This document shows positions 10,039 to 42,016 of a DNA stretch of 64,000 nt, one piece after another (the first letter of the stretch is position 1; the number at the start of each line of letters is the position of its first letter). Made by a program: the position numbers and the translations under genes. The notes under the pieces are model-generated. The model was not told the DNA's origin and made no database searches. It was given only the letters and a program-made list of their open reading frames with translations. Location of the stretch: assembly GCA_905178155.1 (NCBI GenBank), contig CAJINV010000002.1:5203709-5267708 (forward strand), given 5' to 3'. The DNA comes from Amoebophrya sp. A120. Taxonomy: Eukaryota; Protista; Dinoflagellata.

Positions 10039-10091
10039 TCTCATCCACCGGATAAGATGAGTATCCGCCGGCCGGATACCGCCGGCGATGT

Positions 10092-10134
10092 GGTTGAGTT
10101 CTCATCCGGCCGGTGGCCGGATGAGAACTCAACC
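10092..10134. repeat. Perfect hairpin, 20-bp arms with a 3-nt loop
   Basis: GGTTGAGTTCTCATCCGGCC-GGT-GGCCGGATGAGAACTCAACC. Confidence 0.9.
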
Positions 10135-19564: not shown

Positions 19565-22500
19565 GTGCACTCTCATAGAAGCCTCCCAAGGGGGACAACG
19601 ACAACGACGAGAACTGCTCGCCGCCCTCGTCGTTCCCGCGCCGGCTCTGGCTCTTGCACCTCTGAAGACATCATCTTCAAGGGTAGCTATTTTAAAGATA
19701 TCGCAGGCAGTTCAAGTTCTTTTTACAGCATGATGCCGAGGTATGCCTCGACGTCGACATCAACCTGCAGATTTATTCCTTCATCTTCTTTTTCCTCTAC
19801 GGCTTCAACATCTTCATCCGTGGTCTGCCTCTCCCCGGAGCAAATCCTCGACTCTTTGAGATACAAAGCAGGAACAAGCCCGACTCCGTCTTCATCGAGT
19901 AATATTAAAGCAACTACTCCGCGGCCATTCCCATTTCCTGTAGACAAAACGCGCATGGTGGTCTCCCGGACCGACGAACTGATCACCTTGACCAAGTTCG
20001 GTGCGGCGATCGATTTTCGGATATCGAAAGGAAAAATCCCCCCTCCCCATATCAAAACGAAATCTCTGATGCTGGATTTGTGTACACAAATCAGCTTTAT
20101 ATTGCAGGAAGGCATTGCGGCCAGATCCCCAGGCTATCGAGGGGCGTATCGGTCTAGTTGTTCGGCATGGCAAACGGCTGCCCTTTAGGCCCAACAGCAT
20201 GACAAAGTAGATACCTCCATGATAATGGGGGCGAAGCTTTTGCCCTTGTCTTCTTGCATAGACAAATGTGATTTGTGACCTCAAATCAGCAACGCAAATT
20301 TTCGGAAGCATGCCTTTTCAATATGGGGAGGGGGAGTTTTTCCTTTCAATATCGGAGGCAGAAGCTGGAAATCCCAAAGAAAATTTTGGACGACTTGGGT
20401 TTGCAGCTGCTCGCGGAAAAAGCAGACAAAGATGTTGAAGTAGAAGAGCAGCGGGAAGAAACAAGTAGAACTAGTGCCGAAGCAGTAGTACAGGAAGATG
20501 CTTCACTTAATATTTCTGCATCTTTCTCGTGTTGGTCACTGGAGAAGATCCTGCAGTGCCTGATTCTGTTCTCCCGAACGGGCTGTTTGTGCGTGCCGTT
20601 GTTCCGCAAGGGCATGTATTTTTTCCATCTGATCCTGCAGAGAAGTAGGACGACACTGGCCGCTGCTCCTCTCGTCCGCGAGGAGAACAGTTTCAGTTTA
20701 CAGCTCCGAATCGACCTCCTCACCGCCCTCGCGCGGCAGCGCGCCCGGATTCTCGTGCCGCATTTGGGGAGGACTTGGTTTGCGGGTTCCGCTTCTTCAT
20801 CTTCATCCGATGCTTGTACAACTTCTGGAATGAAGAGTATTGACACGACGACGATCTTCACTGCAGAGCAAGCCATGCAGGTCCTTCACTCTTGTGCGTA
20901 TCTGCGGCTGCCCTTACCCGAATGCGTGGAAAGCAGGATCGTCGAGGAAGCGGAGGTGATTTGTACTAGAAGGGGTGGTGCCGATTTTTTAAAACCTCAT
21001 TCAGTTGTCGACGCACCTGGTGGTCAAGATCAAGAAATAGCTGCGTCAGGAGGTGGACCTGCTCCGCAGGAACTACTACAACAAGACCTCGAGTTTCTCT
21101 TGCACGCCATGTACCACACAACCACGCTGTACCACGCCCAGGGCGAGATGGTGGATATACAGATGTGGGAAAAAGTGCCGACTGCTGGAACACCTGAAGC
21201 TGTTGATGCGGGACGAGCGTCACAAAAGTTCTCAAATCAAGCAACTGCAGTAAGAACATCGCATGAACGAACCACGACGAGGACATCAAACGAGAATCTT
21301 CCCGCTGCTCCCAGACTCTCAATCGAATACGTCTTCGGGCGGATTTTGCCAAAGTTTGCGGAGCTGTACATTACCATGGACAACAAGAACATTGACATTT
21401 CATCTAATGGAAATAACGAAACCAATTCAACAAATTCTGCAGAGAAGACGAGGAGGGGAGAACCACCACCACCAGCAAGTACTTCTCCGCCGTCGAAGTC
21501 CTTCCTCCAGAAGGCGTCCGTGCTCCGGAGCGTGTGCTATCAAAAGTAAAAATCCCCCCTCCCCATATCGAAAAGGTATGTTTCCGAAAATTTGTCTTGC
21601 TGATTTGAGGTCGCAAATCACATTTGTCTTGCAAGAAGACAAGGGCAGAAGCTTCCGCCCCACTGTGGAAGCGATTTGTCATGCTGTTGGCCCTAAAAGT
21701 GAGCCGCTTGCCATGCTGAACAACTAGACCCATACGCCCCTACCAAGCCTGGGGATCTGGCCGCAGTGCTTCTCTGCAATACAAACCTGATTTGCGTACA
21801 CAAATCCAGCATGAGAAATTCCGTTTTGATATGGGGAGGGGGGATTTTTCCGTTTGATATGTGCCGCTACTTGCACAAGGGGGCTGTGGAACTATTGAAT
21901 ACGGCGGAGGAACAAAATATCAAATGTAAAAATGTCTGGGTCTGGAAACTTGTGATGCTGTGTGGCGTATCATGAGGAGGCGACAATTGCTGGCTCAGCA
22001 TGACAAGTTTCTGAGCTTCTAGGTGTTGCCTATTCTGCATGACAAACTACGTTTCTGCATGACAGAAAAGTGGGGCTCTTTGGTAATGTGCATGACAGAT
22101 TTAAGAGTCATGCCAGACAAGCATGACAAACTTGCATTCTTCCAGACCCAGACATTTTTACATTTGATACAAAAGGTGATCGCAAAATGCCTCCGCAAGA
22201 TCCACGAAGACTACCAGGACTGCCGAATCAGTATGGAGGAAGAGATTTTTTACCGCGATAGGAGAGAAGATAAACAGGTTCGTCATGCAGCTGCCGCCCA
22301 AGATTTTTTGTCTGACAATGCTACAACACGTACAACAGCAGCAGGACCAGGAGCACCAGAAGCTCCCTCGTCCTTTGACCAGGAACACCACGACTGCCAA
22401 GAAGTACCCCCCGCAGAGAAGAAGCCGATCCCCCGGTTTCTCGAGACTGTGTCGTGGTCTCTGACAAAACTCCGCATCGCGCACTCGACGGAGGTCGAGC

Positions 22501-22985
22501 GTGGGCCCTACAAGCTCGATGCAGTGGAACGGGATCGGAAATGCGTGTATCGACTGTTGAAACAGGACCGCTGGCTGGCGGAGTCCATCCGCTTCACCAT
22601 CGGACCCCTAGTTTTGCAGGAACTGCTGCTGAAGCACCAAGACTTCTCGGTCATCAACATTCCCTACTGGCACTGGAACAAGTTGAAACTGCGGAAAACG
22701 AGAATTGAATACCTCCGGATGAGCCGCTACTTGGCTCTGATGGACCCGAGGCTGAGACGGATCGCTACGGTGGATGATGAAAATAATATGAATACAAGCG
22801 GTACAGCAATTCAACAAGGTCCTCAATTTTCCCTCCCGGCCACAGGAAACAATTTTCTGTACAGCGGGGAGCGCTTTGGCGGGAAGCGCGACGTGCCCAA
22901 CAACGCATTCTCATGGTTCAAGGCGAAGGAGGCGCGGCCGCTGGAGCAGACGGTGGCACGCCTGAGCGAGCAGACGAGCAACTGA
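19565..22985 (+). CDS. RAP-domain (FASTK-like) RNA-binding protein, 3 introners, possibly mitochondrial (alternative start ATG 19730)
   Basis: C-terminal GPYKLD...LLKHQDFSVINIPYWHWNKL...RIEYLR fits the RAP pattern. ORFs 19565, 20275 and 22023 fuse in frame. Confidence 0.75.
20022..20351. mobile_element. Introner, family C
   Basis: TATCGAAAGGAAAAATCCCCCCTCCCCATAT / ATATGGGGAGGGGGAGTTTTTCCTTTCAATA. TSD tcgga. Confidence 0.92.
21538..21859. mobile_element. Introner, family C (opposite orientation to 20022)
   Basis: Same TIR. TSD tgtgc. Restores SVC-RYLHK. Confidence 0.92.
21918..22169. mobile_element. Introner, family A
   Basis: Perfect TATCAAATGTAAAAATGTCTGGGTCTGGAA TIR. TSD caaaa. Restores EQ-KVIAK. 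Confidence 0.95.
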
Positions 22986-24902
22986 ACATCTTCGAAGTGA
23001 TCGAGGAGATGAACGTTTGTTCCGCGTCAGATCACCACTGGGAACGACAAGTAAAACGAGAACCACGTCGAGGAGCACATGATGGGCTAAGTATAACAGT
23101 AGTCAGCCGCTCGACCTCGTCGCTGCTAGGCGCTTGTTGTAAGTTGTACTCAGATTTTTAAGTAGAACATGATGATGCTGATCATTCGAGCCCAGAAAAA
23201 GTGATACTCAGGCGGTCGGAAAAGCTCCTGCTACTCGTCCCGCCAAGCCCGTCGTGCCACTGAAAACATAGATTCTTAGAACAGTAGCGACTTTCGTAGT
23301 GGGAGATCCCAGTAGATGAAGCATCGTGATTTAACTGTACGAACCGCATTGATCGTGTAGGCATACTTAATGACGCAACGTGCAGCTCTAGCTCTTCGTG
23401 AAGGAGTTCCTTTTCAGCTTTTTTCGTAAAAAAGGAAAAAATGCACTAGATGACGTAGATCTGCAACCATCAAGGAGACACGGTAGCAAGCGTGTTCAGC
23501 TCTGCATCGATTCGTAGTAAGACATTTTAGGACTCTTAAATCCGTCATAGAAATAGAAATTCGTGCGGGCGCCAAGAACATAGGAAAGTGCTGCCGTGTT
23601 GAAAGCCTCCACTTCGAAGATAAAAAGACTTCTCTGGTCATTAAAGAGCTGGAATAGAAGATCGAGATCGCTCGTCTCGATTAGGCCGAGCTACGTAGTT
23701 TCCTGCCGTGTTAGAAGCCTGGTCAATATTTCCTTGTTGTAGAGCAGTCACGTTCAAATACATTGTAGGGCCACAAGAACGCTGAAGATCGTGCCTAGGC
23801 CTCCTCGTGCAAAATGAGAATACTGAAGACGGGCAGTGTAGCTGCGGATGAAGTTGTCAAGTAGCGAGCTAGGTTCATCCTGCAGAACATTCGTACGGGT
23901 GTCAGCTGCATTTGATAGTTAGAGTTCAAGCAGAATCCATCGTCGCTGTGTTGAAAAATTCAAGTGCCATTTTCACATATGCTGGAGATTATTCAAAAAA
24001 AAAACAGATCGCAATCAAGGTTGCTGCATATTACCCGTTCCCCCAGTAGGTAGGAAAATTTACAAAAAGTAGTTCCGTGGTCCCTTTTTAGCCTCCGCGC
24101 CATCGTAGAAAGAGGCCCGCCCTCGTGCCGCGACAAATAAATCCGTAGGGGCTCGAGGTAGTAGAAAAAAAACAAGAAGACTCAATCAACAAACTGGCGA
24201 ACCACTTCCGAAAAAGATCTCATTTCGCTTTTTAGTACTGTTTTTGCTACTCATTTTCTAGGCGCGCCGTAACATCAACACCACGTAGTTCATCTTATGC
24301 TTAAATCAAGATCCTCTATTGATCGTATTACTTGGGGTAGTACAGCCTCCTACCAGAAGTGCGTACTTAGTTTCCTCGCGGCCTACAACGCATCGTAGGT
24401 GAACGCATTGCCGCTTCCTGTCGACAGAAAACTTTTCCAAGCCAGCAGTTTTTTTGCGCGACGGTCGGCGACCCAATTTTTGATTCGTGGACATTGAAGC
24501 TTTTTTTGATAGCGTCTTTCAACCCTTGTAGTGCTAAGTAGCACGGGTAGTACTAGTGCAAGGATTGCAGTGACAGTGAGCACTAGAAGATTCCTCGGGG
24601 TAGTGATTTGTTAGAGGGTGATCGACGTACACGTAGGGCAGTCACATCTAGATTCTAATCCTCTACTAGAGCTAGAAGAAGCAACATAGTCGACATCGCG
24701 GGACGAGGACCAAGAAGAACTACGGCTGCAGGAGAAGTTTTTAGCTGGGTAGAAGAACATCAAACGTGGGTTTGGATCACGAAGATTTTTGATATAACTA
24801 CGAGCTGCGCCGCTTGTTGGACTGAAGTAGGACGAGGCTTTTCCATTCTAGAAACGCAGCAGACGAGTTACACGACTAGGGAAACAAGAACAACGCGGCA
24901 AA

Positions 24903-26643
24903 ATGTCGGGCCCCCGCCAATACACACAAGATCCGGCCGAAATGTTTGTCGGCAATCTTGTGAAAGACAGTACTTTTTCTACATTTCATTTTTTTTTTTC
25001 TATTGGTATACTGCGTATATCTAAGTGAATCCATAGAAACAACTACTTATCACAAAAAATAAATGAAGGGATCATTTAGATTCCTGCTGCAGCGATCGCG
25101 ATGTTGAATTTCAAGTTTTGACATACGGCCCCCACCAAACAACACCACAGACGAGGTCCACTCGACGAAGGCGCTGAGGACGTTTTTCGAACAATTCGGA
25201 CCGGTGAAAGATGTCGACGTGAAGAAGGACCGCAACGGCCTTGGCAAGGGCTTTGCCTTCGTCCAGTTCGAAGACTCCAGTTCGGTGGACACCGTCCTCC
25301 AAACGTACGACAACAATTACCTGGGTGGCGTGTGGCTCGACTGCAAAAAGTCTGTGGACCGCTCGCAGCGGGCTCCGCCGAAGGGCGGCCACCCGCCGGC
25401 CCCCGCGCCGCCACCGCGACGTGGGGGACAGGGAACTGCGGATCGGGGAGCAGGTACTAGATTTTTGTTTATTTTAGGTAGATGGACTTTAACTTCTTAG
25501 ATCTATGAAAAGACGGACAAATCGAAGCCAGATGTTGACTTCCCCATTATACTGCCTTTCCTGACCGTATAGACGGCCTGCAAAAACAGCCCAAGAACTT
25601 GTTTGCGCTAGCAAATCTCCTCGGCGTAATTTCGATCGATTTTACTATTCCGGATTCTTTCTACTTTAGAGAAATACACAACGGGATCATGTTGGAAACA
25701 TGGGATGAACCGAACTCAGGTAAAGGAGGCAACCGGGGTGGCGACGGTAGTCGTGCGAAGGGTGGCAGCGTCGCAAATGGCCGCGGTGGTGCTGCTTTCC
25801 CGACGCAGAAGACGCAGAACATGAACATTTTGGAAAAGGTTGCGGCCCAGCAGCAAAACATGGGTGGCGGCAACAACTTGGCGCAGCAGCAACAGCAAAA
25901 CACCCAGCACGCGCAGAAGTTCTTGCAGCAGAATGCGGCGGGCAATCCCGGGCAGGCGGGCAGCATGATTGTCAGCGTGCCCCTGCCGGGCGGCGGCTTT
26001 CTGCAGTACATGCCGATTCAGCCCTATGACGGCTCCGGCGTGATCCGACCGGCCATGCCCGGCTGGTTCGGGGAAATTAGGAACCAGCAGGTGGCAGGCG
26101 GTGGTGGTGTACAACAAAATATGATGCAGCAGAACAATATCATGCAGCAACAGCAACCACAGCAGCCCACCATGTCTATGCAGCAGCGGATGATGCAGGT
26201 ACAGCAGAACAACCTGATGCAGCAGCAAACTATGCAAAATGGGATGTGGAACCTATCCCGTGTGAAAAAATGGACCCACCCCCTTTTCGAGACAAAAATT
26301 CAAATCATGCAAGACAAATCCAGGCTTATGCACTGCAGTCGCGCCCTGGTAGTACAGCCACATCAGAAAGAACCGGCCGTGTCATTCATAATCCTGCTAA
26401 GAGCACGACAAAGGATAAATTTTCAACAAAGTTCTGAGCTGTAAGAGAGACGTTCCAGGCGGCATGCCGATTTGAATGACAGATATGGGCGGGGGTCGTT
26501 TTTCCACAGGATAGAACCCCGCGAACCTCGACCCCGAAGACATCGAGCTGAACGCCTCCCTTGGCCTGACCCCGGGCGGCAAGCCAATAGAGGACACCGC
26601 ACCGGCCAATCCCTTCGCCGTGTCAAGACCCGGGCCGTATTGA
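24903..26643 (+). CDS. hnRNP-like single-RRM protein with Gly/Gln-rich tail and C-terminal PY motif
   Basis: RNP2 MFVGNL and RNP1 KGFAFVQF. Introns at ~24960-25128 and 25454-25671, introner at 26254-26513. Ends SRPGPY*. Confidence 0.8.
26254..26513. mobile_element. Introner, family D
   Basis: TATCCCGTGTGAAAAAATGGACCC / GGGTCGTTTTTCCACAGGATA. TSD gaacc. Confidence 0.88.
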
Positions 26644-27491
26644 GCTTGTCGATAAAGAACGAAAAACTTAAACTTCTACTCTAGGTATTGAAACTCAGTC
26701 CACTCTGGGAGTGGATTTCTAGCGTTTGAAGATTTAATATTGGCTGTTACCAAGATATCAAAAAAGTGCCAGTCGTGCAGTTTATTTCGCATTCCTCGCA
26801 GATCTACATCTAGCTCTAACGACGGGCGCGACCCTCTGTTTTTTTCTACCCCAAGACGACAGTTCCATTCTTCTCTACCCCAGGACGACACTTCCCCCCT
26901 TTCTCTTCCGTATATTCACTTGCCCTCGACGCGTACTACTACTAGCAGCACGACGTGCCACTCGATTCGAAGAATTTAATTGAGTTGCCCTCTTGCTCTT
27001 TGAGACTACAAATCTACAACCTGGAAGCAGCAAGTTCGGCGGCAACTGCAGGAAGAATTTCGAGATGAATCAGTAGGGGAGTAATCATCAATATACTTAC
27101 TCGTAATATTTTCTGTAGCTTGCTGTTGATGGATTTATGAAGCCATGCACGCACTTCACTTCGATGAAGAAGAACATCGGAGAGACAATTATGTTGATCT
27201 TTGTTCACGTACATTTTACCTTTTGCTTTTCGTCGACGTGAAGTCAGTACCCCAAAAGAACAAGAAGGGGAGAGAATGAGAAGGAGAACAAGAAACGAGT
27301 GCGTTCAGCCACGGAGCGAGAGATGAGAGTGCTAGGGAGCGCCCGCGGTAAAAAAATCCAAGCACACTACGTAGATCGATGAAAAGGACAATAAACACTT
27401 TGAAACACCATTGTAGCGTCAGTCGCGTCTATCGCTCTGTCCTTCTTTCAAGGTGGCGATTTAAAAGACCTGTAGACCGAATTATCCCAAA

Positions 27492-27940
27492 ATGGTCTGC
27501 GACACGGTGTCCAAGCGACTGGTCCAGAAGCCGGGGCTATCAAATGCAAAAATGTCTGGGTCTGGAAGATTGCCAGATTTGTCATGCAGTTTTTCCATGA
27601 CCCATGAGGTCTGGTATGTAGGACATAGCATGACAGATCTGCGCGACCTTTCTAATGCCTCTCCTGCATGAGAAACTGCCTCTCGATTAGGTCAAAAGTG
27701 CACAACTTTTGGCAATCATGCAACACAGTTTTTTGCCTGATTCAGATTTAGCATGACAAGTTGCAATCATCCAGACCCAGACATTTTTACAGTTGATAGG
27801 GGCTGTCTCTGCTCAAGCCCAAATTTTCCGCGCGCGGAAACAAGGAAGAGAAGAAACTGGACAGAGGCAAGAAAATCTACTCTGTCCGCGCGGAGATGCT
27901 GGATCGTGTAGCGAAGAGAGGGGCTGCGGATCGAAAGTAG
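27492..27940 (+). CDS. 60-aa basic microprotein split by an introner
   Basis: After removing 27538..27803: MVCDTVSKRLVQKPGLSLLKPKFSARGNKEEKKLDRGKKIYSVRAEMLDRVAKRGAADRK*. AAA-ATG start context. Confidence 0.6.
27538..27798. mobile_element. Introner, family A
   Basis: Family A TIRs. TSD ggggc. Confidence 0.93.
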
Positions 27941-29018: not shown

Positions 29019-30551
29019 ATGAGCTGCCCACGCGGCAGTTGCCCGACGTTCCTGCTGGGAACCACGGGCAGTTTCCTGGTTCGGGAGGTAGCGACATATA
29101 ATTCCGAGGACCGACTTGAGGAGGCACAGCAGGGGGAGCCGGAAGTGGGAACCGAAGGCGTAGTCGCAGGAGGCACTGCAAGATCTACTGCCGTTGGTGG
29201 CGGAGGATTACAGCAGGGCTCGTCGTCCAACTTCGCATCGTCCTCATCTTCCCGATATCCAATGCAAATAGATTTGGGTCTGGACGAAACTTGTGATGCA
29301 AATTAATGAATGATGGGCCGCGCACTGCGATACGCAGCCAAGCATGACATATGTGTTTCGTTTTGCGCATGACATAAACAGACTGTTGCGGTTTGCGCAT
29401 GACAAACTGCGTTTTTGCATGACGGGCAGGGGCTTTTTTCATGTATCACAGAGTCAAGTACAAGTAGACGCAGACGCATGCCAGCCGAGCATGAGAAACT
29501 TGCAGTCTTCCAGGCCCAGGTATATTTGCAATGGATACCCGACGCAGCGAACTGGGGGAGAAACCAGAAGTAGAACTTGGTGTAGCACCAGGAGCAAGCG
29601 AGGGGGACATAGATAGCGTCAAAGCACGAGGACCACTCGCCAGCGAGGGCACCAGAGATCGCATTCAGGAGCTGCGTGAAGATGTTTATTCCGGTGTTTA
29701 TTCCATCGACGCCCGAGCTGACTCAGACTCTCTAAGTGTAGCGACGTCCAGCTTCATCGAAGCAGAAGATTATTCTGCAGATGAAACGACCTCCTCTGCA
29801 GCGCCGTCAAGCGGACCAGGAAAGAATGTTGGCAGTGTGTCGAGAAGTCGTGCTAGTACAATAAGGACGGACGACGTGGAGGAGGATCATGAGGACATCA
29901 GAACGGAAACCTCAACCTTCCTGGAAAATAATCAACCAAGTGGTCGAACAACTCCGTCCTGGGCGGAGCTGAAGAGCTCGCTCGAAGGACTAGAAGGCAC
30001 GGATGTGACAGATGTGAGTAGTCCAACAGCCTCAAGGTCCAGAGGAGCAGGAGCTCCAGGAGCGGCCTCAACTACGAGCTCGTCGAGCAGTCAAAGCTCG
30101 GCAAAATCTTCGTTAAGATCACCTTCCTCAGCTGCGCGTAAGCCTTGTACTAAGAGCTTCTATTGTGTATTCGTTCTATGTAGACTCGATTTTTTTTGTT
30201 TTCGTTATTGCATTTGATTATATTTTACGCCGCCGCTCCCACCTAGATAAAAGCGAAAACACCTCCCATACTGTTGCTCCAACAGATCCCCATCTGCGTG
30301 GCGCAACGAAGCACTATAACGCTGTGGAGGACCACCACGACGACGAGAGTATTGGGTACGAAAACAACGAGAATGATGTTGACGGAATTTCTACCGGGAG
30401 CTCGCACGGCTCCGCTGCTTCTACGTCGTCCTTTACGGAAAGAGAGGGGGAAGAAGAAGCTGCAGAATCTGGCAGAACCGGCTCGGACTCTGCGAGATCT
30501 TATCACCGAGAAATCTTCTTAAAAATGAGTAGCGCTACTAGCGAGCTATAG
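29019..30551 (+). CDS. Ser/acidic low-complexity protein (may be part of a longer gene), one introner plus GT-AG intron 30138..30246
   Basis: ORFs 29019, 29531 and 30165 join in frame. Confidence 0.6.
29256..29537. mobile_element. Introner, family A
   Basis: TATCCAATGCAAATA / TATTTGCAATGGATA. TSD cccga. Confidence 0.9.
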
Positions 30552-31664
30552 TGGTTATGGTGCCATGATGAATTCCTACGTTGTTTATAATGTTCTGCTG
30601 TCTACTACTACTACTTTAACTTTCCCGTTATCTTCATGCCATTCAGTAAATCTAGACAAGCTCCCTCTATGGGGATTTGCCAAGCACTCTGTAACTGTGG
30701 ATTTTTAGTTTTGCTGTGTTGCACCACAATTCTCCTAAGCGGACAATTGCATCATTAACAACCTTCTGGGTGATAGAAAATCTAGCAGGTCAAGCGGGAG
30801 AGTGAGCACGAGAAAAAGCTCCAGAAGTTCTGCTGAAACGACTACAACGGCGATCGGAAATGCGCAGAACGGCTTGCAGAACTTATCGCGAGTAAAAACG
30901 TACCTGCTCCCAGTCCCACGCCCACCCGAGTTGGGTTTTTGATGCAGATTACTTGCATTTACAACATAGAATTACAGTAGCGGGAAGAACGGTTGTGACG
31001 CTAATTCACCTCATCTTCCTCCCTACGAGACGAGGCGTTTGCATTTCTCAGCGTGGTATCTTCTCGGACAAAAAATGTGTAATGCTGTAAATAAGATAAG
31101 CACACCGCTTTGTGATGTGGCTGCGGTTGCTAGGTAATCGGCACCACGCGCCGGCTACCACGGACGGAAGTTTGTCATGCGTGCGCTGGAATAGCAAAAC
31201 TCCAGGACTTTGTGTCCGACTTGACCGTGGGCGAGTGGGTACGTCTTTCCACAGGATGGAATTTCATGAAGGACATTCAAGCGACAACGTTGGAGCGAAT
31301 CATGAAACAGGATGGCGATCCCGAGGCGCAGGCGCGCATAGACTCCTTGCAAAAGACACTGCAGCCAGTATAGTCTCTTGATGTAGTCTGGCCACAGGAG
31401 CACGGCGATCTCCATTAAGAACTTCAAATTTGTGATGTGTAGCAACGACCTAAGTAGTTTTACTTCACAACAAGATCCGGTCAATTAGACCGGGACTTTT
31501 CATATTTCAAAGAGCCTAAGGCAGTTCGTTGATGATATTGAGACACAGAACAATGCAAACTGTCAACATTTGCCTCACTACACACGACGATCGCACAGGT
31601 TGCTGCGTCCCTTATCGCTTTACGGCGCGGGACCAGCGGCGATACCGGCGCGCAGTCGAACGGC

Positions 31665-34600
31665 TTGACCTCGGTCCTGGCTACCGGGGTCCGAAACCAA
31701 TTTTTGTCTGGCCGGTTTATGCCCACTCCGCAGAGAGATACGCACGTGCACGTCGTGTTCGATAAGAGTCCAGCGAACATGGACGCTGTGCAGCCAGTGT
31801 TCGTGGATCCGGCCAACCCAGGGCAGCTACAGATTGGAGACGTTCCGGACAATAAAAACGTGAACCTGCCCACCGAGATCCAACTGCAGGAGGGCATCAT
31901 CACGCACACCAACCTCCCGCAGCCGGAACCCTCGCTGCCAAACCAGCAAGTGTCGGCCGTGTATGCGCTCGTGTCGTTTGGGGACGGCTTCAAAGTGACG
32001 GCGTGGAACGCGAAATCGGGAAAGCCGGAGCAATATCAACTGCAAAAATGTATTCTGGGTCTGGAAGATTGCACCTTGTCATGCTGTTTTTGGATTCTAG
32101 AAAAGTTTGTCTTGCATGACCAGCAAGAGGGGCACACTTTGTGCTACACGGACAGGGCATTTCTCATGCGGAAGGTGCATCAGGAAGCCCTCTAAAAATC
32201 GGCGATGCTAGGTCATGCATTACAGGCATCATGGGTCATGAAAAATATGCATGACAAATCTTTAATCTTGCATCCATCCAGACCCAGACATTTTTGCATT
32301 TGATAAGCAAACGAACCTGTTTAAGATCCACTCCAATTACCTCTCGGTTTTTCCGAAACTCAACGACTTCGTGACCAACACCGACGTGCTGGTAACCGAG
32401 AATGGAAAGCAGAGCTACCAGCCGGGGACGATTTTCCTCGTTCGCAAAGTTGAGCGGCTCACGTCGACTGGTACAACGTCGAAGACCGTGGGGCGGAAGC
32501 AGATCACGTGGTCGCTGTTGCCGCTTCCAGACATGACCGAGGCGCTCGATCAGAGCGGAAGGGATGTTATCAGACAGAAAAGTACGCGGCCCGGGCTGGT
32601 ACGGGGGAACAAAAAGCTGTGTTGCAACTTACACTCCGAAAATAAAACCTCTGTAATGCATGCGGAACAAACTACCACCTCCACAGGAGTAACTGTAATG
32701 CGCGGAGTTTTGTGTCATTCAAGCTGCATCTCAAAAATTAGCGAGATACCGAAAATAGAGATGTCATGCTGATAACAACCGAAGAAAGTTTTTCGTGGCA
32801 CTTCTGAAAAGAAACCTGTATTTATTATCCTGAATTTAGTTACTGGTAAAAGGGTGTACTTTTCTGTAGAATAGTATCGCCAGAAAGAACTGTCTCAGAC
32901 TCAGTCTCAAACCGTTGCAGACTCACACTCAGCAATAAACGCAGAAAACTACCTGTGATGCGTCAGACACAACAAGGGAGAACACATAAACATATAGAGG
33001 ACGACTTTCCTGCATGCCGAGCATGACAAAAAGCTGTTTCAAGAAAGTTCCGCATTAGAAGTTGATACCGGGACAGTTTTTTCGCACGATAAACAGATGT
33101 CGGACCCAAGTGGACGAGTCCGGCGTTGGAGAGCGATTTTGCAGTTATTTGTAAATTATCAAATGTAAAAAAAAAATGTCTGGGTCTGGAAGGTTGGAAC
33201 TTGTGATGCTAACTTTGGATGCTAAAAAAATCTGTATTGCATGACCAGCAAGAGGAGCCCAGTTTGTGTTACGCGGGGAGGGCATTTGTCATGCGGGAGA
33301 GGCATCAGGAAGGCCTCTAAAAATATGTGATGCTAGATCATGCATTACAGACATCCTGACTCATGCAAAATATGCATGACAAACCTTGTAACCTTCCAGA
33401 CCCAGACATTTTTACATTTGATATAAATCCGCAAAGCAATTGCGGGTGCTGGGCAACCCGGTGGAGTATCACTTGCAGTACAAGGACGCCCCCCAGAGTT
33501 CCGCACAACAACAGCCGGTGCTCGATGTCCGCGTCTTTAGTAAGACCGAGCTCGACAAAACCTTTGCAAATAAAGGCAACGAGCTGCAATTCGCAACACG
33601 AAACCTGCTGCCCACGCCGTACACATTAAGATGGAAGACGAACATGTCGGCAACTACGATCTGGCAAGCGGCTTTGCAAGAGAACAGAGCAGTGGACCTG
33701 CGAAAGATGCTCCAAAGCGCCGGAGGATTCAGTAATCTGTTCCAACTGGAGCTTGACCGGGATTTGTTGCAGAAAATGCAAGCAGCGTTTCTGAATGGCG
33801 TTGTGCCCACAGTAGTCGCATGGGTGAAAAAAAACCTAGTCATCGCAGGCGGAGGCAAAGACATGAGTAAGGAGGAGAAAGAAAAGGAAAGCGAAGTGCT
33901 GGCGGGAGTGGCCGGTGAATACCTGAAGCGGCAACTGTATGGAAGTGTCAGAATCGAAATTGACAATATCGAAATAATTTGTCATGACACGGACAGAGTC
34001 CCGAAAGCACGACACGGACAGAGCGCAACAAAAACCTGGATCTCCGAAATCAACCGAGAATTGATCAAAAGACGATCCACACCAGCGGACTGCTTAAGCA
34101 AAGAGCTTTGGAGACAAATAGTATCTGGGAACAGCTATGGCACAGTAAAGCAAACAGCATCAACTTCTTCTACATCTTCCTTCACCAACAGCAACAGCAT
34201 TGAAAATAATCTCCCAATCCAGGCGATCATGAGACTGAGAGGTCGAAAAAGGGAATTCTAAGGCGATAACGTCGAACAGAATACATTCATCAATTTGTCA
34301 TGCATAAAATGGATTCCAGTCCGAACCCAGTTTCTAAGTGGCGCATCACAAATTCTGCTGGTACCTGAATCCAGTTTGTAATGCTGTCTAGGCAAAGAAG
34401 ACTGTCTTTCTCATGCTGCTTTAGCAGCTCGAGCTATAGCCCCAAACAGGCTTACAATCGGCCTCGCTTGCCTGCTCTGCAACACACGTATCTCGCGTCA
34501 TGCATTTTATGCATCACAAATTTTTCGATTTGGATTTTGTCAATTTCGATCCTGACAGTTCCATAAACTGCGCACGTTTTTCCCGATGTTTTTACCGGAT

Positions 34601-37600
34601 GGTACGTATCACACAGAAAAAAACTGGCAGGTCATATTTGTAATGCAAAAATAAACTGACAAAAAAAAATAAATTTGTATTGCATATCCTAAATAGCATG
34701 CTAAGAGGCCGCCCATGACAGATTTTTCTGTGTATTTATTTTTGCATTACAAATATGCCCTGCCAGCTTTTTTCTGTGGGATAGTACGCAGCCGCAGGTA
34801 ATAAAACCAGTGTCCGCGCAAGACCGGCTCGCGGTTTACCCGCTCCAGCACACGTTCGCCCTGGCGCCGCGGGCAAAATCTGCGGGTATGAAGAACCTGG
34901 TGGCCACCGTGGCTGGAGTGATTTCAAACGCGGGGCACGTGGCGGGCTCCAAGTACTCCTTGCAAATCATGCGTTTGGAAGGTCTGGATGTGTGGGGTGG
35001 CGGTTGGAAGCAGCAGCTGCTCCTACACAAATCTACTCAATCTTGCAAAAATTAAGTACTTACTGCATTTCCATTTGTGTGAGCAGCAGGAAGGTTTATT
35101 TCTGTTGTGCTGGAACAAAGCAGTTCCAGTTCGTCTTCGTCATGCCAAACAGCAGGGTTCGGAATTTGCAATATGTACTTAAGACCCGAAGGAACAAATT
35201 GTCATGCTTGCATGCCGTATACGTATTAACGCCGGCGCCGGCCAGGCTTGTAGCGCAAATTGCCATGTCGCGCAAGACACAGCATGACAAGTCACGTGTT
35301 TTTTATGTTCTCCTGTTCAGACCGAGACCGAGACCTCCCAGACGCTGTATTTGCATGCGATACCAAGAACAAAAAAGCTCAAGCGCAGCAGAACAAGGAG
35401 ATGAGCAACGGGCTGCGGATGTTTTTTAATCTGATGGACATGGAGCACACGATATGCAATACAAATTTAATTAGCATACCCCCGTAGTGCCACGCATAAC
35501 TACGCATACAAAATGCATCAAACACGATTGTGTGTCCACCCTGCAGCACGTGACTTGTCAAGCTGAACAAGGACGCGAAAAAACAGCTTTGTCATGCGCT
35601 GTTCGCACTATCTGTGTGTGTAGTACGGGAAGTCCAAATTTCCTTTGGATGCACGAATCCCATCGACGTTCTGGTTCCCCTCGTTTTGCAGGCTTTTATA
35701 TCGCGAGAAAAAACTACTGTCTCAGGCTCAAACTACCTTTGCAGTCTCAGCATTTTCACAAATTTTAGAAAACACACAAAATGCCCTTCGATGAGTCAGA
35801 CGCAAGAAGAGGAAACATTTTCAAAACAAGGCCTGCCTGCTGGTGTTGCATGTAATTATCGTCGAGGAGCTTCATCTACACAAGTTGAGTCAGAGACAGT
35901 TTTTTGTTGCGATATTTTGAGTTCATGGGGAAGATGAACCAACCGAAAAAAACCGACGCAACCTCTATGGCAGTCTCAGCTCAAAACAACCTGGACTGGA
36001 ACAAGAAATGGTGATGCAATACTAGATGGCGGATACCCTTTTTAATCTGTGCACACTATATCGGTCCCTAGCACCATGATGACAAATGTATGAATCTACA
36101 CCTACACTCCGCGGCATTTTTGCAATTCGTACCAAAAAACTGTCATTATGCGCCGGAGCAGCTGCAAGGACACTAGTTGCTCTTTGATTTTGCCCTTTGC
36201 GCAAAAGACGGTACAAAATTGGGCTTTTACATTGTTCCGGTTGAGATGATTGTTCCAGCTGAGCGGGCCATATCCCCTTCTTTCGTGGAGCAAGAGCTTG
36301 TTATGGGGGAGGTACTTAGAAAGTTCACGATGGAAATTTTTTACGACGCTCTTTGCATCAATAGCTTTGTTGATCTTGATGTGCCTTGATGTTGTTGATG
36401 ATAGTAAGGTAGCCCCCGGCTCTGTCTGATAGCAAGAGAACAGAGACACTCGTATCATCGACTTCGTAAGTGACGGTCGTGAAGACCACCACTAGTAAGA
36501 ACGTAAGCGCAATACGCTAAATATCCAGGGCCGTCATCGGGTCGACGAAGAGGATGCAGGCTTTGTTCTTAACGGTGCGAACGCTGATGCTACGAATTCC
36601 ACATTAGATTTTTCAGTACAACATCAAGGAGAATTCGGTGCCGAGAGGACAGCAGGGGCTGGGGGATCTCCACTTTCGGAACACGCAACGATCGCAGAAG
36701 CCACCAGTGTCCTGCTGCAGGAGCTGGAGGTAGCGCGGCGGGACGACGAGGATAGGTCGCAGACCATGGACACCAGCGGCAGCCTCGAAGGGGCGTCAAG
36801 GGTTGTAGCTGCTGGTGGTAGTAGTACTGAAGATGCAAAGTGGAGGTCCAGTTCTAGTAGTACGACAGGAGAGCAGGAGGACTATTCAACAACTACAACA
36901 TCTTTGGCACAGCTGGGACAAACGACTACGCAGCAAGCGGCCGTTCCGGTCCAGCTACAGACGGGCACCGCGGGCAAGTCCTTCTTGCTGAATAAAACGG
37001 CGGCCGCGCTGCAAAAGTTTATCGCAAATCTTTTGCAACTGCTGCAGGCGATGCTGCAGACGTACGCGAAAGACGGTGGCCAGTTGTACGACATACTGAA
37101 GGATGATCAGAAACGCTTAAAGCAACCACCTAATCGCGGGATGACAGCGGGGGTCTCGCGGGCTGAAGTCGTGGAGAACTTGCAGCAAACTTCGGAGTAT
37201 GGATTGCAAAAGTATTGTAGTTGTACTAGTATTGCAGTACAGCACTACAACTAGCTACGTCTATCTTCGAGCACTAATTTTCTGTTTGTTCCTCGTATTG
37301 GATAGATTTCAATTTCAATTTCAATTTATGAGCATGTAATGCAATAATTCATCGTATTGGAACTTTTAGTACAGCGATAGTACTTTTGCAGTGCATACGA
37401 CGGCCGTCGACAGCGCGCGCAAGGTATCAAACGCAAATATGTCTGGGTCTGGAAGCTTGCAACTTGTCATGCTGTTTTTGGAGTCTAAAAAAATTTGTGT
37501 TGCATGAGGAGCAAGAGTGGTCCAGATTGTGCTACACGGACAGGGCATTTCTCATGCGGGAGGCGCATTAGGAAGGTTTCTAAAAATCCGTAATGCTAGG

Positions 37601-40600
37601 GCATACAACATCACAGACTATCATGGGTCATGAAAAATATGCATGACAAATCTCGCAGTTTTCCAGACCCAGACATTTTTGCAGTTGATACAAGGTCATT
37701 GAGGACAAGTGGGGCGCGGGAAGACCCGCGACGTCGGGACAGGTACCGAAACAACCCCCGGCCCATATGAATTGCCAAAATGTCTGGGTCTGGAAGGATG
37801 CAAGGTCTGTCATGCTTGTCTGGCATATACTGAAAAGTCTGTGATGCGTGTCCAAGAAGAGACCCTTTTGCTTGTCATACAAAAACGCAGCTTGTCATGC
37901 GGAAAGCTCAACACTATCACTAAGCCCCGCAGACATTTCTCATGCTTGGCTGTGCATTACAGACGAGCACTCACTAACACTATTCACATTTCAGCATTAC
38001 AAGTTTCCAGACCGAGACATATTTGCATTTGATAGCCCAAGTAAAGATGGAAAAGTTTGTTGCCCCGACCAAGACGAAGACGTCGGGAGGAAAAGGTATG
38101 GAGAAGACGAAGGGCGGCGGCTTCTTCTCCGGCCTGGCATATCAAAATGAAAAATCTCCCCTCCCCACATCAAAACGAAACTTCTGCTGCTGGATTTGCG
38201 TACACAGATCAGATTTGTCTTGCAGTAGAGGACTGCAGGCCCATATCATGCCAATGCAGAGACGAGGTCTGCCCAGGCACTTGGCACGAGGAACGTCTAT
38301 GCTGTAGGCCCAACAGCATTACAAACCGCCTGCACAATGGGGCGGAGCCTATGCCGTTGCTTTCTTGCAAGACAGACGCGATTTGTGGTCACAAATCAGC
38401 ATCGCAAATCCTCTGCGGCGTGCCTTTTCGATATGGGCAGGGGGGATTTTTCCTTACGATATGGCATCACGGTTGACCGGCAGCACCGCGAGGGCCGCCA
38501 AGAACGGGGCCGCAGCAGCCTCGTACTCTAGTTTCCTGCAGAGGCAGCAGAACCGGAGGAAGCTGGTCGAGATCATGAGGCAAGGCAACTACGCGAAGCA
38601 GGGCCAGGGGGAAGAACTGGGTGAAGAAGTTAGTGACAACCGGAGAGGGAGAAAGAAGAAGAAAGGAAGTCGAAAACCACGCAGGAGGAGGGAGGACCAC
38701 TATGGAAGTGTCAGTCGGGAAGTCGGCAAGATGAAGATAAGTAGCTACCTTTTGTACAACTACATCAAACAAAAAGGTATATGATTTGCAATGTGACGAG
38801 TGTCAATGTGCATCAGACACGAGAATTCGGATGATGCGACCAGTTGGACTCGCTGCTTTATTTTCCAGCCGGCCCAAGGGCAACAAATATCAATATGCGG
38901 CTCGAGGGTTTGTAGCTCAGTTTATTTGTCACGCTGTGTGCAGCTGTGGCTGTCCAGGAGATGAAGGAGGGCCTCAGTCATGCTCCACGACCGCATCGCA
39001 TTTGCTATTAAGCCACTGCATGGCACAATAGGTGGGAGGCATTGGTCAGCACATTTCATGCACTACTTGTGCGAGAAATTAAGAATTGTATGTTGTTTTA
39101 TTGTTTTGTCAATAGCCCAAGGCCAAGCCCGAAGACACAAGCATAACAAGGACGAGTGGGTATCGAAAGAAAAAACTTTGTCGCAGTCTCTGTTTTGCAG
39201 GCATTGCATGGAGAATTTTTCTGGCGTCGCATTTTTTGCCTTGCTTGTTTTTTTGCAGAAACAGAGAAATATAGAGAAATCGTGTATAAGAAAGTTTGAC
39301 ATTGACAATGATACGCTTTTGTCATCGTAACAGAATTGCTGCGAAGGTCCTCAAGAGTAGTGTTGTGACGGTGTTTTTTTTTTGATATTGAGATAGAATG
39401 GACCCATCCGACGAGGACGACTTTATCCTGTGTAGAAATGTCCCTCCCTCCCGCCCATGGTCGAAGCGACACTTTTTCTACACAAGCGAAGAAGTAAGTA
39501 GGTGTGAGGGCTGTTGCGTGACATTAGCACAACCTTGGGTCTCTATTGCATGCAGTAGACGTGTTTTCCTGATCCGGCCGCATTGAAAACCGATCGAGAC
39601 CCGCAGGGCAACGGATCGTGTACCTGGTAAAAATTACCACCAGTTATCACCAGTTGCCCAGCACGTCCTGAGGCGGTCGCAAAGCCAACCGCAGGACGAG
39701 GGGGCTCCGTGTCGATGATGCTGGTCCCGGTGATTAGTCACCAATTGACAACTCCGAGACGACGTCATTGCCGCCAGAAAACGCTTCTCAGAGCGGATCT
39801 GCGTATGAAAATGCGAAAAATTTTGGGCATGCAGATTTTCATGGCAAATCATTATGCAGGGACGTTTTTACATAGGATATGGAATTACGGGAGGGGCGAC
39901 TCGCAAAACTACGACGCGGCTGGTGCTGTGGTGCGGCAGGATTTACAGAGTGGCAACAACGAGTGTTGCAACTGGGACTGCGGCTGCGACACCATGTTCT
40001 TGGGACGGAAGTATGCGAAAACCTCCTATCCTGTGTAAAAACGTCCCCAGCCCATAGTCAAGACGGGAAATCTGCTAGACAAATCCACAAGGCTTGGCTG
40101 TTGCGCATGACAAGTCTGGCCTCGTAGTGTAGTCAGCTTTAGCTAGTTCGCCAGCGCCACAAATCCGGCACATCGCGCTGATTGGAGCATGACAAATTCC
40201 GAAACACGACTAACGCATGCTTTTCATCATGGGGCTCCGCATGAGAAACATCTTCCGCATGCAGAATGGCATCACAACTATGGGCTGGGGACGTTTTTGC
40301 AAGTGATACCTCCAAGTACTGCTTCATTTTTTTTGTCGCGGCCTTCATCACGTTGTTCATGTATCCTGAGTAAAAACGTCCCCATACCAGAGTCAACGTG
40401 GAAAATCTGCTAGACAAATCAGCCAACTTTGGTTGTCTCGCATGACAAGTTTGTCCTCGTAGTGTAATCCTGTTTAACTAGTTCAGCAGCATCACAGATC
40501 TAGCATATCATGCTATTTCTAGAGTCACAAATCCCAAAACACGACTAGAAAAAGCTTCTCATGGGGCTTCGCATGAGAAACTTTTTTGGCATGCAAATTC

Positions 40601-42016
40601 GCATTACAACTCTGGTGTGGGTACGTTTTTACTCAGGATATCATGTTCTCCTTGATCATCTTTTTCGGTGGTGCCGACTTTTTCACTACTGTGAGGAAAA
40701 ATCCCCCCTCCCCATACTGAAAGCGCATGCTTCCAAAAATTGGTGATGCCGATTTGTGATCACAAATCTTGCAAGAGGGCAAATCCAGAGAATCCGCCGC
40801 ATTATGCAGGCGATTCGTAATGCTGTTGCGCCTACATGGCAAGCCTCTGCTATGCTAAGCACCTACTTACGCCACGACCACATCCTTACGCAGGCTGAGG
40901 CTCTGCCTGCAGTGCCTCACTGCAAGACAGAGCTGATTCGTGTACACAAATCCAGCAGTAGAAGTGTCCGCTTCAATATGGAGAGAGGGGGTTGTTCGTT
41001 TTGATACTCACCAATTGCGACCTGTGGGTGTTGACCGATATTGGTGCGGGGCTTGCCAGCCACGGAGAAGGCGGTGGGGGATGTTTGAGCCTCTTTCTCG
41101 CCGGGCTGGCGGCCTGCACGATCTGCACATGCTTGAACCCCCGCGATGAGGGTTTTGAAGCCTGCGGGAGGTATCGCGCAGAAAAAAGCAGGCAGGTAAT
41201 ATTTGTAGCGCGAGAATAAATACTTGATTTTGCGTATCATGGGCAGCATGCTATGGGGCCGCCCATGACAGATCATTTTTGGGCGTATTTATTTTTGCAT
41301 TACGTGACTCTGACTCATACAAATAAATTACTTAATATGCCCTGCCTGCTTTTTTTTGTGGGATAGGAGGAGATGCGGCGGGTCCGCTGAAGGAAGTGAG
41401 GTGGATGCAATATCGATTGCAAATGCGTCTGGGCCTGGAAAATTAGTGCGCTTGCTTGGCATGCATGATCTTTTGCCCGATGATCGTTGGTCTATCATTT
41501 TCAGTATCTTCACGCAGATAGGACAGTAGTCCTTTGGAATGCATGCAGTAGATCCAACATGAGCATTTAGCAGTTTTGCGAAGGGGCTGCCTCCGCCGGG
41601 TTATTATTCCGCATGAAAAGTGCGTCCATCGCTCAGCAAAATGATGCGGGATCATTATTCTGAAGGTCTTTTCAACAACGATATAGATACGATTGTGGTT
41701 GTGCAAAACTTATTCTTGACCGAGCATCGTCATCCTTTCCAGATTCATTCACATTTGCATTGGAAACGCGGTCGATACGTGCAAGGCAAAAACGTGCGGT
41801 TGTGGACCATGCAACTGCTACCTGTTGTGTTGTTGCGGAATTTGCCGGAATATTTTGATGGGTCGGGAGTGGAATAATATTAAGGGCGAAGGGTCCGTCA
41901 GGTATAACCAGCAGGAGAAAGCAGTCTCTGTCCATGAGCACGTCTTGCAAACTAAGCAAGGGCAGAAGATGGCGGAAGCGGCCAAGGAAGCCGTGCATCG
42001 AGAACACGACGAGTAG
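31665..42016 (+). CDS. Very large protein with Cys-rich, TM-containing C-terminus, 21 introners plus canonical introns (5' end and the ~36012-36240 junction unresolved)
   Basis: The frame was followed continuously across 31665-36011 and ~36240-42016 by removing each element plus 5 bp and GT-AG introns (36312-36432, 36466-36528, probably 39032-39115). Confidence 0.65.
32034..32305. mobile_element. Introner, family A
   Basis: TSD agcaa. Restores PEQ-TNLF. Confidence 0.93.
32568..32873. mobile_element. Introner, family E
   Basis: TATCAGACAGAAAAGTAC / GTACTTTTCTGTAGAATA. TSD gatgt, with the right copy split by a family F insertion. Confidence 0.8.
32875..33091. mobile_element. Introner, family F, inserted at the right end of the family E copy
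   Basis: TATCGCCAGAAAGAACTGTC / GACAGTTTTTTCGCACGATA. Flanks aatag/aacag. Confidence 0.8.
33157..33423. mobile_element. Introner, family A
   Basis: TSD taaat. Restores ICK-SAKQL. Confidence 0.93.
33938..34565. mobile_element. Introner, family G, enlarged by an internal insertion
   Basis: TATGGAAGTGTCAGAATCGAAATTGACA / TGTCAATTTCGATCCTGACAGTTCCATA. TSD aactg. Confidence 0.9.
33987..34291 (+). mobile_element. Probable 5'-truncated non-LTR retrotransposon (RTE-like) fragment
   Basis: 11-bp duplication AATTTGTCATG (33976-33986 / 34292-34302). Encodes ...KTWISEINREL...SKELWRQIV, resembling LINE ORF2 C-termini. Confidence 0.55.
34607..34783. mobile_element. Introner, family H
   Basis: TATCACACAGAAAAAAACTGGCAGG / CCTGCCAGCTTTTTTCTGTGGGATA. 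TSD gtacg. Confidence 0.92.
34954..35362. mobile_element. Introner, family A-like (degenerate)
   Basis: TSD ccaag. Restores GSK-NKKAQ. Confidence 0.8.
35453..35651. mobile_element. Introner (degenerate, unassigned family)
   Basis: TSD cacga. Restores EHT-NPIDV. Confidence 0.75.
35699..35914. mobile_element. Introner, family F
   Basis: TATCGCGAGAAAAAACTACTGTCTC / GAGACAGTTTTTTGTTGCGATA. Flanks tttta/ttttg. Confidence 0.85.
37198..37397. mobile_element. Introner, family I
   Basis: TATGGATTGCAAAAGTA / TACTTTTGCAGTGCATA. Flanks cggag/cgacg. Frame restored. Confidence 0.8.
37425..37690. mobile_element. Introner, family A
   Basis: TSD caagg. Confidence 0.93.
37766..38034. mobile_element. Introner, family A
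   Basis: TSD gccca. Confidence 0.92.
38140..38461. mobile_element. Introner, family C
   Basis: TSD tggca. Confidence 0.92.
38701..38989. mobile_element. Introner, family G (degenerate right end)
   Basis: Left end TATGGAAGTGTCAG. Flanks accac/accgc. Restores EDH-IAFAIK. Confidence 0.65.
39161..39387. mobile_element. Introner, family J/K
   Basis: TATCGAAAGAAAAAAC / GTTTTTTTTTTGATA. Flanks gtggg/ttgag. Restores EW-DRMDP. Confidence 0.75.
39424..39879. mobile_element. Introner, family B (long, diverged)
   Basis: TATCCTGTGTAGAAATGTCCC / GGGACGTTTTTACATAGGATA. The TSD is lost, but removal plus 5 bp restores the frame. Confidence 0.7.
40027..40308. mobile_element. Introner, family B
   Basis: TSD cctcc. 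Confidence 0.92.
40362..40640. mobile_element. Introner, family B
   Basis: TATCCTGAGTAAAAACGT / ACGTTTTTACTCAGGATA. TSD tcatg. Confidence 0.93.
40687..41006. mobile_element. Introner, family C (reverse orientation)
   Basis: Flanks ttcac/ctcac. Confidence 0.85.
41172..41365. mobile_element. Introner, family H
   Basis: TSD ggagg. Confidence 0.92.
41411..41766. mobile_element. Introner, family A (degenerate)
   Basis: TATCGATTGCAAATGCGTCTGGGCCTGGAA / TTCCAGA..CATTTGCATTGGAAA. Frame restored to ORF 41825. Confidence 0.7.

What the first reader, a model, noticed from the sequence alone, without database searches (positions are those of the whole stretch)
20022..41006. Introners appear to be removed in either orientation
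Family C copies at 20022 and 38140 are reverse complements of those at 21538 and 40687, and 20022 and 21538 lie in the same gene. Family B 15309 is inverted relative to 40027/40362, family A 27538 relative to 32034/37425, and J 39161 relative to 45012. All host genes are on the + strand and all frames are restored. Strand-specific spliceosomal signals (5' site, branch point, pyrimidine tract) cannot explain this easily. The inference is that the TIR hairpin itself defines the boundaries.
Basis: partly seen in the sequence, partly recalled or inferred. Interest (0 to 1): 0.85.

Follow-up and report, generated by a model that had tools for sequence, protein, structure and literature searches.

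The report
Transposon introns spliced either way round
In the marine parasite Amoebophrya, small transposons sitting in coding genes are missing to the base from RNA-derived assemblies whichever way round they lie, because both of their ends look the same; they are likely removed by an altered splicing machine that pairs the two ends and cuts at a fixed distance from them.

Summary
Observation confirmed and extended. The window is Amoebophrya sp. A120; the elements are its published introners (TAT...ATA inverted ends, 5-bp target duplication). All four named inversions are real. Contigs of probable RNA runs lack both C orientations (38140, 40687) in one poly(A)-ended transcript, both J orientations, and A copies of both orientations; all 13 directly seen joints remove element+5 nt, and only one register fits all 13: 1 nt before the left arm, 4 nt after the right arm. 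20022 and 15309 have frame support only. The inference is half right: the inverted ends, not GT/AG, set the cuts, but symmetric ends present the same sequence in both orientations, so this cannot prove a hairpin. In 303 further copies, conservation is direction-specific (intron +2U, +3A, -7A; 27 vs 7, p=0.0008), and G.U pairs are not favoured (224 vs 249). Best reading (0.5): pairing matches the ends, a modified spliceosome branches at -7A. Elements and hairpin idea are published; orientation independence and the -7A prediction were not found in print. The scan noted similar introns in other dinoflagellates.

The parts
20022..20351 (-). Family C introner, inverted relative to 21538/40687; duplication TCGGA; predicted intron 20021-20355
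   Evidence: frame of 853 codons; no RNA joint listed
21538..21859 (+). Family C introner (reference orientation), same gene as 20022
   Evidence: X2 contig piece ends at 21532 and the record runs on for 422 nt
21918..22169 (-). Family A-type introner, inverted relative to 37766
   Evidence: X1 piece begins at 22169 with 128 further letters
38140..38461 (-). Family C introner, inverted; intron 38139-38465
   Evidence: joint 38134-38462, 327 nt = 322+5, in X1, X2, X4
40687..41006 (+). Family C introner, reference orientation, in the same transcript contig as 38140; left end TAC
   Evidence: joint 40682-41008, 325 nt = 320+5, in X1-X4
27538..27798 (-). Family A introner, inverted relative to 32034/33157/37425
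   Evidence: joint 27532-27799, 266 nt = 261+5, in X1 and X2, none in X5
29256..29537 (-). Family A-type introner, inverted relative to 37766, in the same transcript contig
   Evidence: 97 vs 20; contig piece begins at 29538 with 447 letters before it
32034..32305 (+). Family A introner
   Evidence: X2 piece ends at 32028; length fit
37425..37690 (+). Family A introner; duplication CAAGG gives GT..AG in the common register
   Evidence: length fit 2829 = 2829
37766..38034 (+). Family A-type introner
   Evidence: joint 37760-38035, 274 nt
15309..15619 (-). Family B introner, inverted relative to 40027/40362/61678
   Evidence: in a + frame of about 1200 codons; no depth in X1/X2
40027..40308 (+). 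Family B introner
   Evidence: joint 40020-40308, 287 nt
40362..40640 (+). Family B introner
   Evidence: joint 40356-40641, 284 nt
39161..39387 (-). Family J introner, inverted relative to 45012; follows an 11-nt exon
   Evidence: joint 38699-39392 with 10 letters between
45012..45250 (+). Family J introner
   Evidence: joint 45009-45254, 244 nt
39424..39879 (.). Old introner with decayed duplication; fixes the register uniquely (intron 39423-39883)
   Evidence: joint 39422-39884 with no ambiguous letters
41411..41766 (.). Old introner, right end AAA, no duplication left; fixes the register uniquely (intron 41410-41770)
   Evidence: joint 41409-41771 with no ambiguous letters
32568..33091 (.). 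Compound pair: element 32875-33091 inserted into the right end of element 32568-32873; 533 nt removed in all
   Evidence: 313 nt between contig pieces matches removal of each in turn; the alternatives give 317, 535, 624
29019..42017 (+). Host gene: 25 introners and 3 GT-AG introns, one frame of 1576 codons, A run behind 43031
19505..22985 (+). Host gene of 20022, 21538, 21918 (RAP-domain protein)

Best explanation
These are short non-coding DNA transposons with inverted ends that are cut out of the RNA at a fixed distance from those ends in either orientation, likely by a modified spliceosome after the two ends pair and with a predicted branch at the A seven bases before the 3' cut. Shown: inverted ends TAT...ATA, 5-bp duplication, both orientations, removal of element+5 nt, register N|N-TAT...ATA-NNNN|N, no need for GT/AG or for an intact duplication. 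Inferred step 1: insertion is orientation-blind and both orientations survive because the ends are symmetric. Inferred step 2: pairing of the arms identifies which ends belong together and brings the 5' cut within three bases of the -7 A, possibly standing in for the U1 snRNA that Farhat et al. could not find. Inferred step 3: the catalytic core reads +2U and +3A as a relaxed 5' site and the -7 A as branch nucleotide, and sets the 3' cut by distance, not by AG. The register is the one in which a duplication NNAGG would give an ordinary GT..AG intron, which suggests descent from ordinary splicing.
For: 13 of 13 direct joints skip L+5 and offset 1 is the only register common to all. 49 same vs 51 opposite among 100 family-assigned copies in other contigs. 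Terminal variants, 5' arm vs 3' arm, in 303 copies: position 1, 2 vs 8; position 2, 2 vs 6; position 3, 13 vs 3; in the direction first seen in the window 27 vs 7, p=0.0008. At position 3 the tolerated changes break the pair (9 C.A, 4 G.A) and outnumber the wobble-keeping A>G (3), so the -7 base is kept as a base; it is a purine in 303 of 303. Positions 1 and 3 lean in opposite directions, so one strand-biased mutation process does not explain both. True partner end is the best in-register complement in 20 of 25 (22 of 25 with A at -7), whereas a single-end matrix needs 113 (5') or 1070 (3') decoys to admit all 25. Precedents read: Giardia 5' motif [G|C]TATGT with a fused branch/3' motif (PMC10711314); group II branch A 7-8 nt from the 3' site (PMC1865049); nearly all spliceosomal proteins, U2, U4, U5, U6 found in A120, U1 snRNA not (PMC7789003).
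Against: No lariat, branch read or protein was observed. G.U is not favoured over A.C in the arms (224 vs 249, positions 4-20; 53 vs 38, p=0.14 in the window), so RNA-level selection on the stem is not detected. 6 of 31 RNA-supported elements have weak predicted terminal pairing, four of them with direct joints. Positions 1 and 2 alone are not significant in the test set (p=0.11, 0.29). The 303 copies have inferred host strand and no RNA check. One window copy (52890, no RNA check) has T at -7. Four ordinary introns of the window do not have A at -7 (read). The partner-rank test is partly circular because elements were found by their inverted ends, and the matrix was trained on loci enriched for family A. 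Two 5' arms pair better with the next element's 3' arm, yet the exon between is kept.
Confidence: 0.5

Rival explanations
1. A spliceosome-independent machine (nuclease plus ligase, or the unknown machinery of Euglena nonconventional introns) recognises the stem with a short terminal motif and cuts 1 nt and 4 nt outside it.
For: Fixed spacers from a paired motif are the rule in Euglena (5'-N3CDG...CH'G-N5-6|R, where motif and pairing were both needed; PMC12501133 abstract and sections 7, 10, 12); excised Euglena introns are circles (review PMC11282704). Complementarity predicts the partner end across unrelated families. First and last intron bases are free. The compound element fits unit-by-unit removal.
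Against: A protein reading only the stem would not favour the 3' A over its partner at pair 3 (13 vs 3), though one reading bases asymmetrically could. The register coincides with GT..AG for NNAGG duplications. No G.U excess.
Confidence: 0.3
2. A relaxed spliceosome reads the symmetric end sequences (N-TAY, a T-run, ATA) one end at a time; the hairpin is only a relic of transposition.
For: No G.U excess; weakly paired elements are spliced; nearest ends are used even where a farther arm pairs better; direction-specific conservation.
Against: Families share little beyond TAT and an A at 13; elements such as 38701, 35966 and 33938 score at or below background on a single-end matrix yet are removed exactly.
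Confidence: 0.17
3. The elements are excised from DNA, as ciliate internal eliminated sequences are, or the joined contigs come from an element-free strain.
For: X1-X4 are RNA only by the tool's guess; removal of element plus one duplication copy is what precise DNA excision would leave.
Against: The same contigs also lack GT-AG introns and end in a non-templated A run; the DNA-like run X5 runs into the elements from both sides and has no 27532-27799 joint; the -1/+4 register is polar with the transcript and mixes the two duplication copies.
Confidence: 0.03

Closest known systems
Introner elements among the non-canonical introns of Amoebophrya sp. A120 (Farhat et al. 2021, PMC7789003; sections 10, 11, 12, 16, abstract and supplement legends read)
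   Same: Same organism and same elements: inverted repeats starting TAT, seven looser bases, then As; 3-5 nt direct repeats; hairpin proposed to join exon boundaries; Fig. S23 legend places the repeats 1-5 nt from the splice sites.
   Different: The text read calls the splice sites variable relative to the hairpin and the border unknown, and does not mention element orientation ('orientation' occurs only for genes in the passages shown). Here one fixed register, both orientations and direction-specific conservation are shown. Supplementary figures are images that I could not see.
Euglena nonconventional introns (Nomura et al. 2025, PMC12501133)
   Same: No GT-AG; short complementary motif at fixed spacers from both cuts; pairing behind it; proposed MITE origin.
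   Different: Motif CDG/CH'G with 3 and 5-6 nt spacers and a purine starting the next exon, against TAT/ATA with 1 and 4 nt; recent multi-copy families with 5-bp duplications here; unrelated lineage.
Introners of Micromonas and Aureococcus (Huff et al. 2016, seen only second-hand in review PMC10228655; Gozashti et al. 2022, PMC9860276, passages)
   Same: Non-autonomous DNA transposons that become introns, co-opting splice sites from the duplication; reported to insert in both orientations.
   Different: Those keep canonical splice dinucleotides; here 44 of 49 cannot be read as GT/GC..AG.
Non-canonical introns of Fritillaria borealis (review PMC11282704 section 6; PMC13326754 passages)
   Same: Transposon-derived introns with inverted ends and duplications, removed by an adapted U2-type spliceosome.
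   Different: Preferred AG-AC/AG-AT ends and a conserved U1 snRNA there; free terminal bases and no U1 snRNA found in A120.

Membership tests
Amoebophrya A120 introner elements | Host is Amoebophrya A120 | tested here: met
   Window protein 100% identical to an A120 protein, 32% to A25
Amoebophrya A120 introner elements | Inverted repeat starting TAT, seven looser bases, then As | tested here: met
   Position table of 50 window elements and 303 others
Amoebophrya A120 introner elements | 3-5 nt direct repeat at the exon/intron borders | tested here: met
   5-bp duplication, exact in young copies
Amoebophrya A120 introner elements | Repeated families, absent from mRNA, non-canonical ends | tested here: met
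MITE (non-autonomous TIR DNA transposon) | Short, non-coding, inverted ends, target duplication, multi-copy, either orientation | tested here: met
MITE (non-autonomous TIR DNA transposon) | Cognate autonomous transposase | not testable with these tools
   No whole genome held; Farhat et al. report none in A120
U2-type spliceosomal intron | GT/GC...AG ends | tested here: not met
   5 of 49; 7 of 303, about what base composition gives
U2-type spliceosomal intron | Conserved +2U and a conserved branch adenosine near the 3' end | tested here: inconclusive
   +2U in 301 of 303, -7A in 300 of 303, direction-specific; branching itself not observed
U2-type spliceosomal intron | Lariat intermediate, dependence on U2/U5/U6 | not testable with these tools
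   Only contigs hold the stretch; raw-read run X8 laid 2 reads
Euglena-type nonconventional intron | N3-CDG...CH'G-N5-6|R signature | tested here: not met
   N1-TAT...ATA-N4
Euglena-type nonconventional intron | Pairing of the ends required; excised as circles | tested here: inconclusive
   Partner rank favours pairing; G.U test null; circles not testable

The most novel reading that the evidence does not exclude
Amoebophrya A120 runs a second splicing code in which an RNA stem replaces U1 and U2AF recognition: any inverted repeat beginning UA-Y and ending A-U-R is taken as an intron, branched at the A seven bases from its end and cut by a ruler, with no conserved first or last base. This would make any TAT-ended transposon harmless in either orientation at almost any site, and explain tens of thousands of new introns.
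Probability: 0.4. Interest if true: 0.8.

Novelty: already known. Interest (0 to 1): 0.5.

Why it matters
How the non-canonical introns of Amoebophrya (over 60% of its introns, Farhat et al.) are removed is an open question. This work gives an exact rule for the cut sites, shows that orientation does not matter, and names one base (-7A) as the predicted branch point, which one lariat RT-PCR or a search of raw reads could confirm or reject. The rule also lets gene models in this genome be fixed where direct repeats blur the junctions.

Tried and rejected
No whole genome was held. No listed holder is on record as RNA; X1-X4 were treated as RNA because of lost GT-AG introns and the A run. 14600-17919 has no depth in X1/X2, which is no evidence on 15309. 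One search was swamped by the DNA-like run, hiding 268 joints. Viral contigs held no match. No earlier notes for this genome. G.U versus A.C test: null in the window, in 175 and in 303 copies, and in the 81 with decayed duplications (63 vs 81). Sense versus antisense arm duplex energy: no difference (20 vs 27, p=0.77). Target-site preference for NNAGG: not seen (AG in 24 of 303, G in 103 of 303 against 29% background). Removing L, L+4 or L+6 nt breaks the 1576-codon frame within 103 codons. A first attempt to fit 30138-31598 with three GT-AG introns failed; one proved to be an old introner (30501). Literature searches for orientation and for later work on Amoebophrya splicing found no statement on orientation of these elements; most subscription papers (Huff 2016, Henriet 2019, Roy 2023) were not read.
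Full report
What the window is. A window protein is 100% identical to one of Amoebophrya sp. A120 and 32% identical to its A25 counterpart. The repeats match the introner elements described for A120 by Farhat et al. 2021 (PMC7789003; abstract, sections 10, 11, 12, 16 and supplement legends read): inverted ends starting TAT, seven looser bases, then As, with short direct repeats. I catalogued 50 such elements in the window, 150-628 nt long, with a 5-bp duplication that is exact in young copies and decayed in old ones. The list was curated by hand and may miss some.

The orientations. Interiors are not self-palindromic, so orientation is meaningful.

Removal from RNA. Four runs of one sample hold the stretch as contigs and are RNA by the tool's guess. 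One contig (5970 nt in X1, 5786 in X2, 4617 in X4) runs from about 29,000 to an A run behind 43031 that the DNA does not encode. It skips 38140 (327 nt) and 40687 (325 nt), the two C orientations, and 37766, 38701, 39161, 39424, 40027, 40362, 41172 and 41411; a second contig skips a GT-AG intron, 44683 and 45012; a third skips 27538 in X1 and X2 but not in the DNA-like run X5. All 13 direct joints equal element+5 nt. A gene model with 25 elements and 3 GT-AG introns gives one frame of 1576 codons on +, and matches all 9 contig anchors, one of which is the origin. Part of that fit is by construction: 30501, 35453 and 35966 and two GT-AG introns were located with the contig lengths in hand. The stretch 36527-43031 (2829 = 2829) and the 313 nt across 32568/32875 fitted without tuning. 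A-type copies 29256 and 37766 are opposite (97 vs 20) and lie in this same contig. 21538, 21918 and 26254 are supported by piece ends. 20022 and 15309 have frame support only (853 and about 1200 codons).

The register. Exact duplications blur the cut, but decayed ones fix it. 39424 and 41411 allow only one cut; 38701 allows offsets 2 or 1, 39161 1 or 0; offset 1 is the only value allowed by all 13. The intron is therefore N-TAT...ATA-NNNN: one flank base before the left arm, four after the right. This is polar with the transcript and the same for both orientations. First and last bases are free: 34 different end combinations among 49, and only 5 of 49 can be read GT/GC..AG in any equivalent register. 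It is, however, the register in which a duplication NNAGG gives GT..AG, as at 41172 and 37425.

More copies. A scan with a family A end motif returned 145 loci, all from one public assembly. I searched the 77 loci of 1500 nt or more with a detector symmetric in the two ends (37 of 50 window elements, no false hits, none in reversed or shuffled controls; merged with high-scoring hits of a first detector). Of 384 distinct elements 303 were given a host strand by a coding model; 81 were dropped as undecided or too near an end. Leave-one-gene-out on the window gave 27 right, 4 undecided, 0 wrong of 31, all + genes. In the stricter set of 175, 100 were assigned to families: 49 in the reference orientation, 51 opposite, no family significantly skewed (lowest p=0.08). 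These copies have no RNA check.

Does the hairpin define the boundaries? Three tests bear on it. (1) If the RNA stem were under selection, G.U should outnumber A.C among arm mismatches. It does not: 224 vs 249 at positions 4-20 in 303 copies, 53 vs 38 (p=0.14) in the window. Long stems may buffer single mismatches, so this gives no support but does not refute. (2) Because element orientation is random, any difference between the 5' and 3' arm reflects the splicing step. The window suggested (0 vs 6, 0 vs 1, 3 vs 1 variants at positions 1-3; hand-curated, so a lead only) that the 5' arm keeps T1 and A2 and the 3' arm keeps the A facing T3. The 303 copies give 2 vs 8 (p=0.11), 2 vs 6 (p=0.29) and 13 vs 3 (p=0.021); 27 vs 7 in the predicted direction, p=0.0008. 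Position 1 could be wobble tolerance, but at position 3 pair-breaking changes (9 C.A, 4 G.A) outnumber the wobble (3). So intron +2U, +3A and -7A are read as bases. (3) Sequence alone is too thin to choose ends across families: admitting all 25 true ends of the long gene lets in 113 and 1070 decoys, while in-register complementarity ranks the true partner first in 20 of 25 (partly circular, and the matrix is biased to family A). RNA folding puts the terminal pair above 0.9 in 23 of 31 RNA-supported elements but at 0.1 or less in 6.

Mechanism. The best fit is a hybrid: pairing selects and juxtaposes the ends, and a catalytic centre reads a few bases and measures fixed distances. +2U/+3A resemble a spliceosomal 5' site (Giardia uses [G|C]TATGT with a fused branch/3' motif, PMC10711314 passages), and an A 7-8 nt before the 3' site is the branch position of group II introns (PMC1865049 passages). 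A120 has nearly all spliceosomal proteins and U2, U4, U5, U6, but no U1 snRNA was found; a review reports a U1-70K homologue in A25 (PMC12787238 passages). I give a modified spliceosome 0.5, a Euglena-like independent machine 0.3 (there both motif and pairing were needed, PMC12501133), sequence-only spliceosomal reading 0.17, DNA excision 0.03. No intermediate was observed.

Novelty. The elements, their removal and the hairpin idea are in print. Insertion of introners in both orientations is reported for Micromonas and Aureococcus (second-hand). Searches found no statement that A120 elements are spliced in both orientations, nor the fixed register or the -7A; figures and subscription papers were not seen, and the legend of Fig. 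S23 may show the register in part. The scan has noted similar hairpin-bounded introns in other dinoflagellates (unchecked). I file the system as already known, with a useful new constraint and a direct test; interest 0.5.

Noticed in passing
window 32563-33100: Element 32875 inserted into the last bases of element 32568 (duplication AATAG/AACAG). The contig length fits removal of the inner one first, then the outer; cutting the outer first would destroy the inner 5' end. A natural twintron.
   Followed up: partly
window 39150-39160 and 37402-37423: Exons of about 11 and 22 nt between adjacent introners are kept in the transcript contig.
   Followed up: partly
window 37425-38034 and 40027-40640: The first element's 5' arm pairs better with the second element's 3' arm than with its own, yet no skipping joint is listed in X1-X4; contigs drop rare forms.
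   Followed up: partly
window 48098-49241: A 1.1-kb element of another kind with about 90-nt inverted ends (81%), internal repeats and hairpins, flanked by a 41-49-nt direct repeat of exon sequence; no fit to the TAT rule found.
   Followed up: partly
window 2090-3830: Arrays of a 33-nt palindromic unit in both orientations and an 11-nt tandem repeat, unrelated to the introners.
   Followed up: no
window 9960-10134: Two short perfect hairpins (79 and 43 nt) close together.
   Followed up: no
window 49930-56750: Kinesin motor gene on + interrupted by several introners; 52890 ends in TTA, the one window copy without A at -7, not checked in RNA.
   Followed up: partly
window 33938-34565: A D-type element twice the length of its relatives 49619 and 62035, apparently with extra sequence inside; still removed as one unit.
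   Followed up: no
window 49293-49602, 58524-58801, 63057-63339: Further candidate elements found only at low detector thresholds, not vetted.
   Followed up: no
L048:2355-2705: Copy with an exact duplication whose predicted 5' arm starts CAT (C at intron +2), one of two exceptions in 303; strand is inferred.
   Followed up: no
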